The translations under genes and the position numbers were made by a program. A stretch of DNA of 64,000 nucleotides from Shigella phage Sfk20, in the sequence record MW341595, one strand, 5' to 3'. Of the stretch, positions 12,958-60,373 are shown piece by piece. Within the stretch, counting starts at the first letter, position 1. Each line of letters opens with the position of its first letter. Under the pieces are notes generated by a model. It was not told where the DNA came from and did no database searches. It saw only the letters and a program-made list of their open reading frames with translations.

Positions 12958-12965
12958 TTTATCTC

Positions 12966-13301
12966 CTAATATAAAGGATCGGGAACATATCCACTAGCTT
13001 TAATCATTTTAATTAATGTTAACATTCCTTTATTAACTGCTAGTGAAATTTCATCAAAAACTTCATCACTAAAAAGTTCTAACACGCCCTTCTGAACTTT
13101 TAGTTTACAGCCAACAATTTCGTCATCGCCTATAGTAAATTCGTTTCCGCCAATTCCACCGAAAAACTTAATTACGCCAGTTAACTGTCTTCCACGAGAA
13201 TATGGGTCGTGCGATAAAGTAATATGAGTCACCCCAGGTACAGTTTTAAATTGGCAGCGGATGTTTACTTGAGCAATTCCAGTTACATGAATGTCAGACA
13301 T
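12966..13301 (-). CDS. hypothetical protein (111 aa), frd-32 interval
   Basis: ORF track. Confidence 0.55.
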   Translation of the reverse strand: MSDIHVTGIAQVNIRCQFKTVPGVTHITLSHDPYSRGRQLTGVIKFFGGIGGNEFTIGDDEIVGCKLKVQKGVLELFSDEVFDEISLAVNKGMLTLIKMIKASGYVPDPLY

Positions 13302-13311
13302 AATATTTTCC

Positions 13312-13554
13312 TCAAACAGTCTTTTTCACAATTTTCCAATCAGCTTTAAACTGTTCAACATCAGAATGGTAAATCCAGAATCCTGCGCTTTCTCCATCCT
13401 CATAAAGAGGGCATCCATCACATTCATCTTCCCATCCCATATCACGCAAAAGATGTTCAGCTTTTTCAACAAGTTCAGAATCTTTACCGATGATATTAAA
13501 ATACCATTTACCTCTAACTTCTGAATCTTTAATGCTCTGACGTTGTAATCTCAT
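13312..13554 (-). CDS. hypothetical protein (80 aa), frd-32 interval
   Basis: ORF track; promoter/stem-loop element immediately upstream. Confidence 0.55.
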   Translation of the reverse strand: MRLQRQSIKDSEVRGKWYFNIIGKDSELVEKAEHLLRDMGWEDECDGCPLYEDGESAGFWIYHSDVEQFKADWKIVKKTV

Positions 13555-13573
13555 TTTATTCTCCTTAGTTGAT

Positions 13574-13609
13574 AGGGTAATAGTATCACACTACTACCCT
13601 ACTGTAAAC
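13574..13609 (-). promoter_or_regulatory. early promoter with embedded stem-loop (PeSL-like)
   Basis: minus-sense GTTTAC ... AGGGTA-loop-TACCCT containing TACTAT. Confidence 0.5.
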
Positions 13610-13974
13610 TACTTTTTGAAAGTTTTTCGCAAAAGTTCAATGATTTCGTCGACGTTATTTTCGTCTACAATGCAGTGAATTTTTGTTACGCCAGAAACCT
13701 TGTCTTCGATTTCATCTTCTTCAGAAGTCGGTTCTTTATATTCACGGAAACAATGAAATTCATCTTCGCAAACGTTAAAGTAAAAATGCTTTCCATTTGC
13801 GCATTCAATGTGTTTTATTACTCTAAATCCATCGGCAAAGAAAGCTTCTTTAACTTCAAACCATCCGCCATTTTCTTGAATAATTTTAACTATTGATGAA
13901 TTAGAACGTGGGCGATAATTAATAAATGTATTAATAAGTCTTGGAACAAGCTCATACTTTTTGCCGATATACAT
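13609..13974 (-). CDS. hypothetical Cys-containing protein (121 aa)
   Basis: ORF track. Confidence 0.55.
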   Translation of the reverse strand: MYIGKKYELVPRLINTFINYRPRSNSSIVKIIQENGGWFEVKEAFFADGFRVIKHIECANGKHFYFNVCEDEFHCFREYKEPTSEEDEIEDKVSGVTKIHCIVDENNVDEIIELLRKTFKK

Positions 13975-14017
13975 TGTGTTTCCTCATTTTAATAGGGGCT
14001 TTATAGCCCCTTGATAA

Positions 14018-14248
14018 TTATTGTTCAATTAATCCCATGTAAAATTCTGTGTCTTCAGAATCCATACCATCACAATATTCATTAGCCATAAAGCGGGTGA
14101 GGTCTTCAAGAGGACCTTCAATGACAATAGAAAAATTGCAATAATTGGGATCATCGTGAATACTTGTGATACTAAGCTCAGGATAACGATTACGAATAAT
14201 TTCTTCAATATATTCAAAATCAACGATGTCAATATCAACTTTAGCCAT
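14018..14248 (-). CDS. hypothetical acidic protein (about 76 aa from internal ATG)
   Basis: track ORF 14018..14332 overlaps gene 32; internal ATG (MAKVDIDIV...) preceded by AGAGGA RBS just after gene 32 stop. Confidence 0.5.
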
Positions 14249-14261
14249 ATTATTTTCCTCT

Positions 14262-15197
14262 TTAATCATCAGCAGTATTGCCGATAGTTGTATAGTACCA
14301 CAGTCCTTGTTGTAGGTCCGTGTCATCAGCACTAGATGAACTGCCAGAGCTTGAGCTCATAAAATCATCTTCAGTTTTTGTATTGAAGTCGTCAACATTG
14401 AATGCATCCAAATCATCAGCAACTTTATCAGCTTTCTTAGCGGCAGTCGCTGCGGCACCACCCATAGCAGCAGTTCCCATAACTTGACTGAATTTAGTGC
14501 TCAGTTCTTCAAACGATTTGAATTTATCTTTAGAAGTCATTTCAGAAAGGTCAACCATTTGTTCGAACAGTTCTTTCTGGAAAGATTCATCATCAATGTT
14601 TGGAATCGCAGATTGATTCAGGAATTTAGATTCGTCGTAGTTACTAAAACCAGAAACTTGTTTAACTTTCAGTACAAAGTTAGCACCTTCCCACGGACAA
14701 GTTACATCAACCGGAGTTTCACCCATTTCAACATCAACTGCAATCATTGCATTGATTTTATCCCAGATTTTCTTACCGAAGCGGTATTTAAATACTTTAC
14801 CTTCATTTTCTGGAGCAGCCGGGTCTTTTACTACAAGAATGTTAGCCCAGTAAGAAGTTTTACGTTTAACAAGACCGTACTCTTTATTGTCAGTGTTATA
14901 CAAATCATTTTTACTGATGTACTGACATACTGGACAAGAATCGTAATCACCGTGGGTAGATGAACAGTTTTCAATATACCATTTACCATTTTTCTTGAAA
15001 CCGTGATTTACAAGAATTGCAAATGGTGCTTGTTCATCATTTTTAGACGGAAGAAAACGAATTACTGCTTGACCGTTACCCGCATTATCGAGTTTCAGTT
15101 TCCACTCGCCTTTATCTTCAGAAGAAAAACCACCTTTATTTCCAGCCAGTTTAGCCATTTGTGCAGCGAGTTCAGCAGTAGATTTACGTTTAAACAT
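14262..15197 (-). CDS. 32: single-stranded DNA-binding protein gp32 with non-canonical C-terminal tail
   Basis: 311 aa; N-terminus and core match T4 gp32; last residues read ...[22 protein letters not shown]. Confidence 0.95.
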
Positions 15198-15229
15198 TTT
15201 TATTTCCTTTTTAATTTAATTAACAGTTG

Positions 15230-15266
15230 GTGCTATGACGATGTATGACCTCATAGCTGGTCAGTG
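15230..15266 (-). promoter_or_regulatory. gene 32 translational operator (leader pseudoknot)
   Basis: minus-sense UGACC-AGCUAUGA-GGUCA-UACAUCG-UCAUAGC pseudoknot followed by A/U-rich leader before the gene 32 ATG. Confidence 0.55.
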
Positions 15267-15280
15267 AGATAATTATAATC

Positions 15281-15288
15281 TATTTATA
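15281..15288 (-). promoter_or_regulatory. T4 late promoter TATAAATA upstream of gene 32
   Basis: exact TATAAATA on minus strand about 85 nt upstream of gene 32 start. Confidence 0.5.
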
Positions 15289-15296
15289 ATAAGCAA

Positions 15297-15950
15297 TTAA
15301 TACTTGCAAGATTTCACAGTTTCAATGAAAACACTTTTAGCTTTCTGTGAATCAATATTTAAAATTTTTCTATAAGCCTTTAACTTTATAGAATAATTAT
15401 TCCAGACTAAATTATCAGTCTGTTCATCATGTTTATCGATTATATTTAAAAACGAATCAAGCAAGATAAACGTCTCAAACGAAATTATATTCGATTGAAG
15501 TAGTTTAAAAATATAACTTGATTGGACTTTTGGATTATACTCAAAGATTTCTTTAAAAGCAGAAACTTCAACTTTTTTACTAAAATAATAAATGTTGCGA
15601 ATATCTTCTTCAAACTTAAATTTAATTTGCTTTAAGCGTCCGATATATTCACGATAAAACACAAGTGCATCAGCGTCAGAGATATCACCAATCCAAGCAT
15701 CTTGGTTAGCAACCAGATTGCTTATAAAGATTAAAGCAAGTTCCTTTAATTTATATTTTTCTGATAACTTCTGGAAAAAATACTTATCCCTTCGCTTTTG
15801 ATAAGCGGCATCAGACACCCGCATGCACCAATTATACTTAATTACATCATACTTTCCGTTCATATGTTGTTTTATCATTAAGTATAATTTATAAACTGAT
15901 TTACCATCAATATATCTTTCACCACCAGCAGGCATGCGGAGTTTAATCAT
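15297..15950 (-). CDS. 59: helicase loader gp59
   Basis: 217 aa; matches T4 gp59. Confidence 0.95.
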   Translation of the reverse strand: MIKLRMPAGGERYIDGKSVYKLYLMIKQHMNGKYDVIKYNWCMRVSDAAYQKRRDKYFFQKLSEKYKLKELALIFISNLVANQDAWIGDISDADALVFYREYIGRLKQIKFKFEEDIRNIYYFSKKVEVSAFKEIFEYNPKVQSSYIFKLLQSNIISFETFILLDSFLNIIDKHDEQTDNLVWNNYSIKLKAYRKILNIDSQKAKSVFIETVKSCKY

Positions 15951-30188: not shown

Positions 30189-30824
30189 TCACAGTTCAGA
30201 TGCTACGGTGATTACTGCTTCAATGTTTTCCGCCGAGCGTTTAATGTCAAGATACACATTACCGTTTTTAGCGATTTTACATGACATTCCGATATCAGTA
30301 AATTTCTGAATATGATGTTCCATCATTTTGTATCCAAAAATTCGCATATTTCCATTGTTATTAATTTCAAAATTGCGAATTCCGTGAGTGCGTTTTTCTA
30401 AAATAGCAAGATAGTTACTGCGGTAAGTTTCAACCTTTTTAAGAACAAATCCATTTTCATCTAAAAGTTTTATCATGAAGTCTTTATCTTCTTCCATATC
30501 GGAAGTAATCTCACGAGCTTTACGAGTTGCTCGTTTTTTCAGTAGTTCAGGAGCATTTTCCTGTGCATATAAAGTTGCCGCATTTGAAATAATATCCTGA
30601 GCTTCGCCTGTAATGATTAATCCATCACCAGATTTCTCCACCAGGCCTTTTTTAATCAATACCCCAATATTACTATTAACTACTGCGTTACCTAAATCTG
30701 GATGCACCTCACGAACTTCTGCAGCTGTAATGAAATCTTTCTTAGCAATGGTAATTAAAATTGCAGCAGTTTTTTCATTCAGAACATCGTTAGAAGCTTT
30801 GATGATGTAAGTTACTTTAGACAT
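30189..30824 (-). CDS. motA: middle transcription activator MotA
   Basis: 211 aa; matches T4 MotA. Confidence 0.95.
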   Translation of the reverse strand: MSKVTYIIKASNDVLNEKTAAILITIAKKDFITAAEVREVHPDLGNAVVNSNIGVLIKKGLVEKSGDGLIITGEAQDIISNAATLYAQENAPELLKKRATRKAREITSDMEEDKDFMIKLLDENGFVLKKVETYRSNYLAILEKRTHGIRNFEINNNGNMRIFGYKMMEHHIQKFTDIGMSCKIAKNGNVYLDIKRSAENIEAVITVASEL

Positions 30825-30845: not shown

Positions 30846-30902
30846 TATCAGTAGTTGATAGTTGTATAGTACCACAGTATGCTTTGGAGAGCCTCGGCTC
30901 TC
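30846..30902 (-). promoter_or_regulatory. hairpin plus promoter cassette upstream of motA
   Basis: GGAGAGCC-GAGG-CTCTCC hairpin followed by the shared GTTGATAGTTGTATAGTACCACAG element. Confidence 0.5.
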
Positions 30903-30909
30903 CCTAAAA

Positions 30910-34156: not shown

Positions 34157-34373
34157 AACTTTTTTAAAAATATTCGTAATAAATGTGAATACCAACTACT
34201 ACTGCTGAAACTTGCGCAACCCACCACGCACAAGCAATAAGCACAGAATTCAAAATTTTCATAATAACCTCATCACAAAAGTAAATGTTAAACAAATTAA
34301 TGGAATACTAATTAACCAAATAAAACACCACCACAATGAACTCATAGTTCAATCTCAACGATTTTCATTTTAC

Positions 34374-34592
34374 TCAATAATCTGCTAAAAGATCGACGAT
34401 TGCATCACGAAGACACTTATTCGCAATACGTTTAAGAGCAATTTCAGTTTCTGGAGCATTTTGAATAATCATTGAATTCAATTCAGCCTCAGCAAACTGA
34501 AGTTCTTTAACTAATTCAGCTTTATATTTTCCTTGCCCTTTCTTAGCTTTTGCTCGTTTTAATTCAGCTGTAGTAAACATTTTATTCTCCAA
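34374..34592 (-). CDS. hypothetical basic helical protein (72 aa)
   Basis: ORF track. Confidence 0.5.
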   Translation of the reverse strand: MENKMFTTAELKRAKAKKGQGKYKAELVKELQFAEAELNSMIIQNAPETEIALKRIANKCLRDAIVDLLADY

Positions 34593-34603
34593 ATCCGTAT
34601 CAG

Positions 34604-34644
34604 TTGATAGTTGTATAGTACCACAGTCCTTGTGGTATGTAAAC
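34604..34644 (-). promoter_or_regulatory. early promoter with stem-loop (PeSL-like), full copy
   Basis: minus-sense GTTTAC-ATACCACAAGGACTGTGG-TACTATACAACTATC; CCAC...GTGG stem between -35 and -10. Confidence 0.55.
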
Positions 34645-42651: not shown

Positions 42652-43140
42652 TTATGCATAGAGAGCTTTGCTATAGTGTTTAATCCAGCTTTCAGGAATG
42701 ACTTTGTATGTTCCTAAAAATACCACATTATACAGCTTAACACCGTCTTCTACCCACTGATCGGTAATGTATGCGCACATAGCACGAGTATAAACAGCCG
42801 CACCATCATCTTTGATAAATTTAAATTCACAAGGAGCAATGAACTTAATAGCCTGACCGAGTTTCCACTTAAAGTCTACACCTACGTGCGAAGTATCAAT
42901 CGTTTCAATTCCTTTAGCAGGAACAGCTTTCAAAAACGCAGACTCAAGAAATTTCGCGCGAACATAGCCAAACTGGGGTTTAGACTTTCCATCTTTAGGA
43001 ATGATACGCACTTTTACTTCAGAATCTTCATCTTTAACACCATGTTTAAGCTGAATGCTTACAATTTCAACCAATTTTCCTGCTGCTTTAGAACGGGATT
43101 TATCAGATACACGAGCAATTTCACCAATATTAATAATCAT
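42652..43140 (-). CDS. motB: MotB
   Basis: 162 aa; length and sequence as T4 MotB. Confidence 0.75.
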   Translation of the reverse strand: MIINIGEIARVSDKSRSKAAGKLVEIVSIQLKHGVKDEDSEVKVRIIPKDGKSKPQFGYVRAKFLESAFLKAVPAKGIETIDTSHVGVDFKWKLGQAIKFIAPCEFKFIKDDGAAVYTRAMCAYITDQWVEDGVKLYNVVFLGTYKVIPESWIKHYSKALYA

Positions 43141-60293: not shown

Positions 60294-60373
60294 AGTTTTG
60301 TGAAAAATTTTTTAATGAATTCCAAAGGTCCAGAATCATCTATTTTTTCCTAAGTATAGATTTATATTACTTG

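What the first reader, a model, noticed from the sequence alone, without database searches (positions are those of the whole stretch)
14262..14310. gp32 C-terminal tail replaced by a partial promoter/stem-loop element
gp32 matches T4 up to ...SSSSADDTD, then ends [17 protein letters not shown] instead of the acidic ...LDDLLNDL I recall for T4. The divergent codons contain the 28-nt block GATAGTTGTATAGTACCACAGTCCTTGT, identical to the promoter cassette at 34605-34632. The extreme C-terminus of gp32 is the acidic domain that contacts other replication and recombination proteins, so this could alter protein-protein interactions and also places a promoter-like -10 inside the gene 32 3' end.
Basis: partly seen in the sequence, partly recalled or inferred. 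Interest (0 to 1): 0.5.

Follow-up and report, generated by a model that had tools for sequence, protein, structure and literature searches.

The report
Deletion fuses gene 32 into promoter
A natural 105-bp deletion in this T4-like phage removed the last seven amino acids of its single-stranded-DNA-binding protein, the gene's terminator and half of the next gene's promoter, so the protein now ends in 16 residues translated from promoter DNA; a few other wild phages carry the same junction, so a deeply conserved tail motif can be lost in nature.

Summary
gp32 (window 14262-15197, minus strand, 311 aa) matches T4 up to ...ADDTDL and then ends [16 protein letters not shown]. The 28-nt block is exact at 14283-14310 and 34606-34633.

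The cause is not an inserted promoter cassette. It is a 105-bp deletion relative to T4, KNP5 and pSs-1. The deletion joins gene 32 codon 295 to position 2 of the spacer of the resident frd.3 early promoter. Lost are the codons for DDLLNDL plus the stop, the gene 32 terminator hairpin, the UP region and the GTTTAC -35. Kept are the extended -10 (TGGTACTAT), the frd.3 leader, its Shine-Dalgarno site and frd.3 itself.

The 28-nt identity exists because both loci belong to one early-promoter cassette family whose spacers are exchanged between copies.

The lost tip ([LI]-D-x-[LI]-L-x-x-[LMF]) is the most conserved part of the gp32 tail across 58 homologues. Published data on gp32(1-295) predict only partly relieved autoinhibition, and the Dda-binding helix is retained.

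Eight other sequenced phages carry the identical junction on at least five spacer variants. Four of them encode gp32-Frd.3 fusions.

This phage also has a private 42-bp deletion of the -35 half of the motA promoter.

It is real, natural and apparently undescribed, and of moderate interest.

The parts
14262..15197 (-). Gene 32 CDS (gp32 ssDNA-binding protein, 311 aa). Codons 1-295 are native; codons 296-311 are the new tail.
   Evidence: ORF list. Pfam PF08804 gp32, E = 1.9e-66. 98% identical to the GRNsp7 gp32 cluster.
14314..14315 (-). Deletion junction, inside codon 295 (CTA, Leu). 14315 and above derive from gene 32 (...GACACGGACC). 14314 and below are the frd.3 promoter spacer from its position 2. 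The T at 14314 could come from either side.
   Evidence: Alignments with T4, SA21RB, pSs-1 and KNP5. The anchor-to-anchor distance is 30 nt here against 135 nt in intact alleles, a difference of 105 bp.
14265..14312 (-). New tail codons 296-311 ([16 protein letters not shown]), translated from the promoter spacer, the -10 and the frd.3 5' leader. The stop codon TAA is at 14262-14264.
   Evidence: Translation. The same DNA is untranslated promoter and leader in T4, pSs-1 and KNP5.
14301..14314 (-). Remnant of the promoter spacer (TACAACAAGGACTG). It is identical to the pSs-1 frd.3 promoter spacer from position 2 and differs by one mismatch from the spacer at 34624-34637.
14292..14300 (-). Retained extended -10 element TGgTACTAT of the frd.3 early promoter. 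The -35 GTTTAC and the A/T-rich UP region are deleted.
   Evidence: SA21RB annotates a promoter at the homologous site. The generic sigma-70 scan no longer calls a promoter here.
14283..14310 (+).
14249..14261 (-). Interval of 13 nt between the gene 32 stop and the frd.3 ATG. It contains the Shine-Dalgarno site AGAGGAAAA and is predicted unpaired in the read-through RNA.
   Evidence: Sequence; RNA fold.
14018..14248 (-). frd.3 CDS (76 aa, net charge -15, function unknown). It now lies directly behind gene 32 with no intervening terminator.
   Evidence: Pfam PF05798 Phage_FRD3, E = 1.6e-37; T4 annotation; charge.
13994..14011 (-). Hairpin AGGGGC-TATAAA-GCCCCT after frd.3, the next candidate terminator for gene 32 transcripts. 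Its T-run is poor.
   Evidence: Sequence. A terminator is annotated at the homologous position in SA21RB. The simple scan does not call it.
34606..34644 (-). Copy 2, an intact T4-type early promoter downstream of denB. GTTTAC is at 34639-34644, the spacer ATACCACAAGGACTG at 34624-34638 (with hairpin CCACA-AGGAC-TGTGG), and TGGTACTAT at 34615-34623. The 28-mer is 34606-34633.
   Evidence: denB is identified.
30866..30904 (-). Second truncated cassette in this phage, the motA early promoter. The terminator hairpin (30886-30904) is joined directly to CCAAAGCATACTG-TGGTACTAT (30866-30874). A 42-bp stretch holding the T-run, UP region and GTTTAC -35 is missing.
   Evidence: Alignment with T4; indel list against KNP5; no database record shares the junction.

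Best explanation
This is a natural deletion allele of the gene 32 / frd.3 intergenic region of a Tequatrovirus.

Shown:
- 105 bp present in T4, KNP5, pSs-1 and nearly all relatives are missing.
- The left end lies in gene 32 codon 295 (...GAC ACG GAC C|TG GAT...).
- The right end lies one base after the -35 hexamer of the frd.3 early promoter (GTTTACA|TACAAC...).
- At most one base of microhomology is shared at the junction.
- The deletion removes the codons for DDLLNDL and the stop, the rho-independent terminator GGGGACCCTAGAGGTCCCCTTTTTT, the A/T-rich UP region and the GTTTAC -35.
- Translation of gene 32 therefore continues through the promoter spacer, the -10 and the frd.3 leader. It stops at a TAA that overlaps the frd.3 Shine-Dalgarno region.
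- The 28-nt identity with 34606-34633 arises because both loci are copies of one early-promoter cassette family (PeSL-type). The flanks of these cassettes are conserved, and their 15-nt spacers are drawn from a shared, exchanged repertoire.

Inferred consequences:
1. gp32 loses a conserved short C-terminal helix motif. By analogy with gp32(1-295) and the T4 mutant dPR201, it should bind ssDNA and dsDNA somewhat more tightly because autoinhibition is partly relieved. It should keep its core, cooperativity and Dda-binding functions. It may lose whatever partner contact the tip makes.
2. Gene 32 transcripts no longer terminate after gene 32. They read into frd.3, which becomes the distal cistron of a 32-frd.3 mRNA and is probably translationally coupled, since 13 nt separate the stop and the ATG and the Shine-Dalgarno site is unpaired.
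3. Independent early transcription of frd.3 falls to whatever the extended -10 alone supports.

The allele most likely arose once. It then spread onto other spacer and frd.3 backgrounds by recombination whose heteroduplex tracts end at the heterology boundary, which is the junction.
For: - Missing 105 bp and exact junction.
- An intact parent-type allele with the same spacer exists in pSs-1.
- T4 tail LDDLLNDL verified.
- Terminator and early promoter are annotated at the homologous sites in SA21RB and R5505.
- frd.3 produces abundant primary, NAD-capped transcripts in T4 (bioRxiv 10.1101/2024.04.04.588121).
- Same junction in 8 other phages from France, Malaysia, China, Poland and South Africa.
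- Cassette family and shared spacers. The R5505/RB14 frd.3 cassette is identical over about 72 nt to the T4 motA cassette.
- Tip conservation: nearly all of 120 homologues end in the motif. Column entropy is 0-1 bit at the L-D-D-L-L positions against 2.4-3.4 bits in the linker, and L299 is invariant in 58 sequences.
- AlphaFold2 model: linker 272-291 has pLDDT below 50, followed by a helix at 294-301 with pLDDT about 63-65.
- Biochemistry of gp32(1-295) and dPR201 (PMC5892887).
- Dda-binding helix 248-270 is retained (PMC11551737).
- The Shine-Dalgarno site and ATG are unpaired in the predicted read-through RNA.
Against: - Reads for this window cannot be inspected. This exact allele (junction plus pSs-1-type spacer) and this exact 311-aa protein are in none of the collections searched.
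- An identical junction on at least five spacer variants, each matching a different intact allele, is not what a simple single deletion predicts. It needs an extra assumption, either exchange ending at the junction or recurrent deletion.
- No transcript, protein or fitness data exist for any deletion-type phage. All functional consequences are therefore inferences from T4 laboratory variants, which lack the 16 added residues.
Confidence: 0.85

Rival explanations
1. A mobile promoter/stem-loop (PeSL) cassette, for example a copy of the element at 34.6 kb, inserted into or replaced the 3' end of gene 32.
For: There is 28 nt of exact identity with the 34.6-kb promoter. PeSL cassettes are documented mediators of shuffling in T4-like phages.
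Against: - The locus is shorter than in relatives, not longer, by 105 bp.
- Everything 3' of the junction is collinear with the resident frd.3 promoter, leader and gene in T4, KNP5 and pSs-1.
- The spacer matches the pSs-1 frd.3 allele exactly but differs by one base from the 34.6-kb copy.
- The sequence after the block is frd.3-specific.
Confidence: 0.03
2. The junction is an assembly or sequencing artefact of this window.
For: The exact allele and the exact protein are not found elsewhere. A second, private 42-bp deletion in a related repeat, the motA promoter, could hint at collapse of repeated cassettes by an assembler.
Against: - The same junction is present in 10 independent GenBank records.
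- The two junction sides share only 1-2 nt, so repeat collapse would not produce them.
- Both deletions leave intact, sensible ORFs and Shine-Dalgarno/ATG contexts.
Confidence: 0.04
3. The deletion is recurrent and site-directed, not a single ancestral event. On this view a process that breaks or switches template just 3' of the -35 hexamer of this cassette subfamily repeatedly generates the same junction in different lineages.
For: - The identical junction occurs on at least five spacer variants and at least three frd.3 haplotypes. Each spacer equals that of a different intact allele.
- The same phage carries an independent deletion at the motA cassette whose right end also falls 1-3 nt after GTTTACA.
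- Arbiol et al. speculate about targeted recombination at PeSLs.
- The T4 dPR201 15-nt deletion lies in the same GATGAC repeat region.
Against: - The left endpoint in gene 32 is also identical in all nine alleles, although better direct repeats lie nearby.
- Only 'AC' or one T of microhomology is available.
- The motA deletion has a different kind of left end.
- Branch migration stalling at a 105-nt heterology is a simpler way to place exchange points at the junction.
- T-even genomes are highly mosaic.
Confidence: 0.2
4. The allele is adaptive rather than a tolerated lesion. Possible advantages are escape from a host factor or defence that recognises the gp32 tip, tuning of gp32 autoinhibition, or placing frd.3 under gene 32 expression. 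In the -1 frame variants Frd.3 is fused to gp32.
For: - The allele persists worldwide on several backgrounds.
- Four phages keep an in-frame gp32-Frd.3 fusion across two frd.3 haplotypes, including a compensating +3 indel.
- The tip is otherwise almost never lost.
Against: - Frequency is low, about 8 of about 500 Tequatrovirus records.
- There is no association with a particular host.
- No defence system is known to me that senses the gp32 tip.
- The new tail sequence is dictated by promoter and leader constraints.
Confidence: 0.15

Closest known systems
T4 gp32 laboratory variants gp32(1-295) and dPR201 (deletion of residues 292-296), from Hurley et al. 1993 and Pant et al. 2018 (PMC5892887)
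   Same: These variants lose essentially the same extreme C-terminal residues. The window lacks T4 residues 295-301, and 1-295 lacks 296-301. dPR201 is a deletion in the same GATGAC-repeat stretch of gene 32. Both variants keep the core, the N-terminal cooperativity domain and most of the acidic domain.
   Different: Here 16 new residues ([16 protein letters not shown]) are appended. The lesion extends beyond the gene into the terminator and the next promoter. It is a naturally circulating allele, not a laboratory construct.
PeSL (promoter-early stem-loop) cassettes of T4-like phages and their degraded '1/2 PeSLs' near indels (Arbiol 2010, PMC2839356; Comeau 2014, PMC4122927)
   Same: The intact gene 32-frd.3 intergenic region has the PeSL layout: a GGGG...CCCC stem-loop terminator, an A/T-rich region, TTTACW, N17, TAYWAT, a Shine-Dalgarno site and an ATG. 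The window keeps only part of it, next to an indel. Cassette copies exchange sequence with each other.
   Different: The described half-PeSLs keep the -35 and/or the stem-loop. This one keeps only the spacer, the -10 and the Shine-Dalgarno site. The deletion is not a PeSL-by-PeSL exchange, since one endpoint is inside an essential core gene. It rewrites a protein terminus rather than swapping accessory ORFs.
C-terminal acidic tips of other SSBs (E. coli SSB ...DDDIPF; T7 gp2.5 C-terminal tail)
   Same: The gp32 family has the same arrangement: a disordered linker followed by a short conserved acidic/hydrophobic tip at the very C-terminus. In those systems the tip both autoinhibits DNA binding and recruits partners (general knowledge; PMC7145534 and PMC10359462 listed).
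   Different: For gp32 the partner of the tip is not defined. The one mapped partner site (Dda) is upstream, at residues 248-270. In E. coli and T7, loss of the tip is lethal or severely defective, whereas here phages lacking the tip are viable isolates.
Deletion-type alleles in GenBank phages TB004, SP21535, EO1, vB_EcoM_11B_SA_NWU (310-311 aa gp32) and CrRp10, phiC600P9, GEP001, vB_Eco-B1.1 (392-aa gp32-Frd.3 fusion)
   Same: They have the identical junction (gene 32 ...ACGGACC joined to spacer position 2) and the identical 105-bp loss. Their downstream new-tail sequence is near-identical, ...[12 protein letters not shown] (11B_SA_NWU ends ...IADN).
   Different: The spacer-encoded residues differ: LQQGL here, HQSIL, LSVLL, LPVLP and LLVLP elsewhere. 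None has the window's pSs-1-type spacer. Four have a 1-nt shorter spacer that puts gene 32 in frame with frd.3.

Membership tests
gp32 family of T4-like ssDNA-binding proteins (Pfam PF08804) | OB-fold core domain matching the family profile over its full length | tested here: met
   PF08804, E = 1.9e-66, profile positions 1-208 of 208, residues 40-240. 98% identity to the Tequatrovirus gp32 cluster.
gp32 family of T4-like ssDNA-binding proteins (Pfam PF08804) | Zinc-ligand residues (T4 His64, Cys77, Cys87, Cys90) and the N-terminal basic cooperativity motif (FKRKST) | tested here: met
   The sequence reads MFKRKST... and ...NHGF...[17 protein letters not shown].... The columns for H65, C78, C88 and C91 are invariant in 58 homologues.
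gp32 family of T4-like ssDNA-binding proteins (Pfam PF08804) | Amphipathic helix in the acidic C-domain that binds Dda (T4 residues 248-270, [23 protein letters not shown]) | tested here: met
   An identical stretch is present in the window protein. The site is defined in PMC11551737.
gp32 family of T4-like ssDNA-binding proteins (Pfam PF08804) | Extreme C-terminal tip motif [LI]-[DN]-x-[LI]-L-x-x-[LMFI] | tested here: not met
   It is replaced by [16 protein letters not shown] after the first Leu. The motif is present in essentially all full-length homologues.
PeSL (promoter-early stem-loop) cassette, T4/PST type | Stem-loop terminator just upstream of the promoter | tested here: not met
   GGGGACCCTAGAGGTCCCC-T6 is present in T4, pSs-1 and KNP5 but deleted here. 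Definition from PMC4122927.
PeSL (promoter-early stem-loop) cassette, T4/PST type | A/T-rich upstream region and a -35 box TTTACW | tested here: not met
   Both lie within the 105 bp that are missing. ACGGACC occupies the -35 position.
PeSL (promoter-early stem-loop) cassette, T4/PST type | A -10 box TAYWAT (preceded here by TGg) at the right distance from a Shine-Dalgarno site and a start codon | tested here: met
   TGGTACTAT at 14292-14300, AGAGGAAAA at 14253-14261 and the frd.3 ATG at 14246-14248.
PeSL (promoter-early stem-loop) cassette, T4/PST type | Promoter activity and terminator activity in vivo | not testable with these tools
   Needs transcription start and 3'-end mapping in infected cells. 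For the intact T4 allele, abundant primary frd.3 transcripts are reported.
T4 early promoter (copy 2 at 34606-34644) | GTTTAC, N14, gtgg, TAttaT consensus with an A/T-rich upstream region | tested here: met
   AAAAAATTTTTCACAAAACAGTTTAC-ATACCACAAGGACT-GTGG-TACTAT. The consensus is as quoted in the SA21RB annotation.

The most novel reading that the evidence does not exclude
The gp32 C-terminal tip is invariant across the family, yet wild phages repeatedly dispense with it or replace it. The gene 32/frd.3 junction may be a genuine hotspot. One possibility is a site-directed deletion process acting just 3' of the -35 of a specific early-promoter cassette, which would also explain the private motA-promoter deletion in this genome. 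The other is a heterology-boundary recombination hotspot that lets 15-nt promoter spacers be swapped without upstream homology. In either case the allele may be kept by selection, for example through altered gp32 autoinhibition or partner choice, immune evasion, or coupling or fusion of the very acidic Frd.3 to gp32.
Probability: 0.15. Interest if true: 0.65.

Novelty: new variant of a known kind. Interest (0 to 1): 0.42.

Why it matters
gp32 is the textbook phage SSB. Its acidic C-domain is held to organise the replisome and to gate DNA binding. This work shows that the last eight residues are the most conserved part of that domain, and that viable wild phages nevertheless lack them. That gives a natural experiment for two questions: what the tip does, since its partner is still undefined and recent structural work set residues 281-301 aside, and how much of it is needed.

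The allele also rewires transcription of a classic autoregulated gene. The terminator is lost, frd.3 is co-transcribed, and in four phages frd.3 is fused to gene 32.

The identical junction on many spacer backgrounds offers a tractable case for studying how T-even recombination behaves at heterology boundaries and how early-promoter cassettes exchange their spacers.

On the practical side, annotators currently label these ORFs inconsistently: a 392-aa 'SSB', a missing gene 32, or a 'hypothetical protein'.

Tried and rejected
- Cassette insertion was rejected on synteny.
- I looked for the junction outside GenBank phages. There were no matches in IMG/VR viral contigs or JGI metagenomes. IMG/VR held only three intact alleles.
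- An exact-protein look-up of the 311-aa gp32 found nothing.
- An Rfam scan of 13500-15600 at E <= 1 found nothing.
- The generic sigma-70 and terminator scan gave only chance-level calls and did not flag the residual -10 or the frd.3 hairpin.
- Flanking-haplotype analysis, meant to decide between a single origin and recurrent deletion, was uninformative. The flanks are mosaic and no marker is private to the deletion alleles.
- I tested whether the window's spacer came from its own 34.6-kb copy (ectopic conversion). It matches the pSs-1 frd.3 allele better, 0 mismatches against 1, so allelic exchange is at least as likely.
- A literature search for the tip sequence (DDLLNDL) gave no hits. Krassa et al. 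1991 was not available.
- An AlphaFold2 model of a wild-type gp32 shows only a modest-confidence terminal helix. The output gives no contact information, so docking of the tip onto the core could not be assessed.
- A second model for the new tail was not run because it would not be decisive.

Full report
**Observation.**
- Gene 32 lies at window 14262-15197 on the minus strand. It encodes 311 aa ending ...[26 protein letters not shown].
- T4 gp32, translated from NC_000866, is 301 aa and ends ...ADDTDLDDLLNDL.
- The 28-mer GATAGTTGTATAGTACCACAGTCCTTGT is present exactly twice, at 14283-14310 and 34606-34633. None were expected by chance. The two loci are unrelated outside it.
- Pfam confirms gp32 (PF08804) and confirms that the next ORF, 14018-14248, is Frd.3 (PF05798).

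**What copy 2 is.**
- On the minus strand, 34606-34644 reads GTTTAC-ATACCACAAGGACT-GTGG-TACTAT, preceded by AAAAAATTTTTCACAAAAC.
- This is a full T4-type early promoter, with a small hairpin in its spacer. It lies downstream of denB.
- The window holds several members of this cassette family, at 60323, 34674, 34186, 39170, 44346 and 51646.

**What happened at gene 32.**
- Most of about 550 related phage records match the region in two pieces spanning about 805 bp, against 699 bp here.
- Alignment with T4, SA21RB, pSs-1 and KNP5 shows that the window lacks exactly 105 bp.
- The missing stretch is TGGATGACCTTTTGAATGACCTTTAATAG...GGGGACCCTAGAGGTCCCCTTTTTT...AAAAATTTTTTCACAAAACAGTTTACA.
- It contains the last seven codons and the stop of gene 32, the rho-independent terminator, the UP region and the -35 of the frd.3 early promoter. 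SA21RB and R5505 annotate both the terminator and the promoter at these positions.
- pSs-1 carries the intact arrangement with the same spacer (GTTTAC-ATACAACAAGGACTG-TGGTACTAT). The window therefore equals a pSs-1-like parent minus 105 bp, with the junction at GGACC|TACAAC (window 14315|14314) and at most one base of microhomology.
- Reading continues through the spacer, the -10 and the leader. It stops at a TAA 13 nt before the frd.3 ATG.
- So the new tail is promoter DNA, but from the resident downstream promoter, exposed by a deletion. It did not come from an inserted cassette.
- The 28-nt identity with the denB-proximal promoter reflects common family membership plus a shared spacer type, which differs by one mismatch just outside the block.

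**Frequency and relatives.**
- Ten records (eight phages) of about 505 matching records carry the same junction.
- TB004, SP21535, EO1 and 11B_SA_NWU encode 310-311-aa gp32 proteins with tails HQSIL-, LSVLL-, LLVLP- and [13 protein letters not shown](T/I)AD(D/N).
- CrRp10, phiC600P9, GEP001 and vB_Eco-B1.1 have a spacer shorter by 1 nt. This puts gene 32 in frame with frd.3, and the ORF is annotated as a 392-aa 'SSB'.
- None has the window's spacer. The window's exact protein is not on record. The junction is absent from IMG/VR and JGI metagenomes.

**An unexplained regularity.**
- All nine alleles have the identical junction, but their 14 spacer bases fall into at least five variants. Each variant equals the spacer of a different intact allele: window = pSs-1, TB004 = R5505/RB14, SP21535 = GRNsp7, EO1 = IMGVR1, and 11B is close to IMGVR3.
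- The flanks are mosaic and span at least three frd.3 haplotypes.
- Spacers are clearly exchanged among cassettes. The R5505/RB14 frd.3 cassette is identical over about 72 nt to the T4 motA promoter cassette.
- I favour one ancestral deletion followed by exchanges whose heteroduplex tracts run in from the frd.3 side and stop at the 105-nt heterology. That would place exchange points at the junction. This is inference.
- A recurrent, site-directed deletion is the rival. It gains some weight from the next observation.

**A second, private deletion.**
- Against KNP5 (about 97% identity over about 50 kb), the only sizeable 'window lacks' indels are the 105 bp above and 42-43 bp upstream of motA.
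- Compared with T4, the motA locus has lost CCTTTTTTATTTTAAAAATTTTTTCACAAAACGGTTTACAA. The terminator hairpin now abuts CCAAAGCATACTGTGGTACTAT.
- No other record shares this junction.
- Both deletions remove the T-run, UP region and -35 half of the same cassette subfamily. Both end 1-3 nt after GTTTACA.

**What is lost from gp32.**
- Among 120 homologues down to about 60% identity, essentially every full-length protein ends in [LI]-[DN]-x-[LI]-L-x-x-[LMFI].
- In a 58-sequence alignment, column entropy is 0-1 bit at L-D-D-L-L, with one Leu invariant. The preceding Ser/Asp linker has 2.4-3.4 bits.
- An AlphaFold2 model of a wild-type protein shows a disordered linker (272-291, pLDDT below 50) followed by a terminal helix at 294-301 (pLDDT about 63-65).
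- The Dda-binding helix (248-270) is intact. He et al. did not study residues 281-301 in detail and found only weak binding for peptide 271-301.
- Pant et al. showed that gp32(1-295) and the T4 mutant dPR201 have Kss about 3-fold and Kds 1.5-2-fold above wild type, with intermediate helix destabilisation. This is a partial loss of C-domain autoinhibition.
- The window protein should behave similarly, modified by 16 extra residues. These carry net charge -2, against -3 for the lost seven, and add Trp-Tyr-Tyr.

**Transcription and translation (inferred).**
- With the terminator gone, gene 32 transcripts should run into frd.3. The next hairpin is at 13994-14011.
- The frd.3 Shine-Dalgarno site and ATG are unpaired in the predicted RNA, and the gene 32 stop is 13 nt upstream, so translational coupling is plausible.
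- Only an extended -10 (TGgTACTAT) remains of a promoter that gives abundant NAD-capped primary transcripts in T4. The generic scan no longer calls a promoter there.

**Comparison with known systems.**
- The intact intergenic region fits the PeSL definition: stem-loop terminator, A/T-rich region, TTTACW, N17, TAYWAT, Shine-Dalgarno site, ATG.
- Degraded half-PeSLs near indels are known. The described kinds keep the -35 and/or the stem-loop, and they lie among accessory genes. Here only the -10 half survives, and one deletion endpoint is inside an essential core gene.
- The nearest protein precedents are the laboratory variants gp32(1-295) and dPR201.
- I found no publication describing this natural allele.

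**Verdict.** This is a real, natural and apparently undescribed deletion allele. It is a new variant of known kinds: a gp32 C-terminal truncation and a degraded PeSL. Its mechanism is corrected from replacement by a cassette to deletion into the resident promoter, and its functional claim is tempered.

Noticed in passing
window 30866-30904 (minus strand), upstream of motA (30189-30824): A 42-bp deletion private to this phage removes the terminator T-run, UP region and GTTTAC -35 of the motA early promoter. The hairpin GGGAGAGCCGAGGCTCTCC is left abutting CCAAAGCATACTGTGGTACTAT. No database record shares the junction. It is the same kind of lesion as at gene 32/frd.3.
   Followed up: partly
L003 (CrRp10) 54-1232; L006 (phiC600P9), L018 (GEP001) and L019 (vB_Eco-B1.1) 339-1517: In four deletion-type phages a spacer shorter by 1 nt puts gene 32 in frame with frd.3. 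The result is an annotated 392-aa 'SSB': gp32(1-294), a 22-23-aa linker, then the very acidic Frd.3 (net charge -15). The fusion frame is kept across two frd.3 haplotypes, one of which has a compensating +3 indel.
   Followed up: partly
L012 (R5505) and L014 (RB14) frd.3 promoter, compared with L015 (T4) motA promoter: The frd.3 promoter cassette of R5505 and RB14 is identical over about 72 nt to the T4 motA promoter cassette, including the spacer AACCAAAGCATACTG. T4's own frd.3 promoter has a different spacer. Across phages the frd.3 promoter carries at least five spacer types. This implies frequent conversion between cassette copies about 16 kb apart.
   Followed up: partly
window 34370-34602, compared with KNP5 locus L017 34731-34981: The small ORF directly downstream of the copy-2 promoter (34374-34580, 68 aa, no Pfam hit) is replaced by unrelated sequence in the closest relative KNP5. 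Homology resumes at the promoter. This looks like a PeSL-associated gene swap.
   Followed up: no
window 12962-13304: About 340 bp containing a 111-aa ORF (12966-13301, minus strand), between frd and the frd.1/frd.2 region, has no counterpart in KNP5.
   Followed up: no
window 15198-15296: There is no segG homing-endonuclease gene between gene 59 and gene 32, unlike T4. Some deletion-type phages (11B_SA_NWU, EO1) do have an endonuclease gene there, so the deletion allele is not linked to SegG presence or absence.
   Followed up: no
alignment A4, gp32 C-terminal region: The extreme C-terminal motif L-D-D-L-L-x-x-L is far more conserved than the Ser/Asp-rich linker and contains one of only 58 invariant columns of the protein. 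Recent structural work nevertheless treated residues 281-301 as unlikely to make specific contacts. Its binding partner appears to be undefined.
   Followed up: partly
window 13773 and 42791; window 7664: There are small in-frame-sized indels against KNP5. The window lacks 15 nt within frd.2 and 9 nt at 42791. KNP5 lacks 11 nt at window 7664, which is possibly an error in that record.
   Followed up: no
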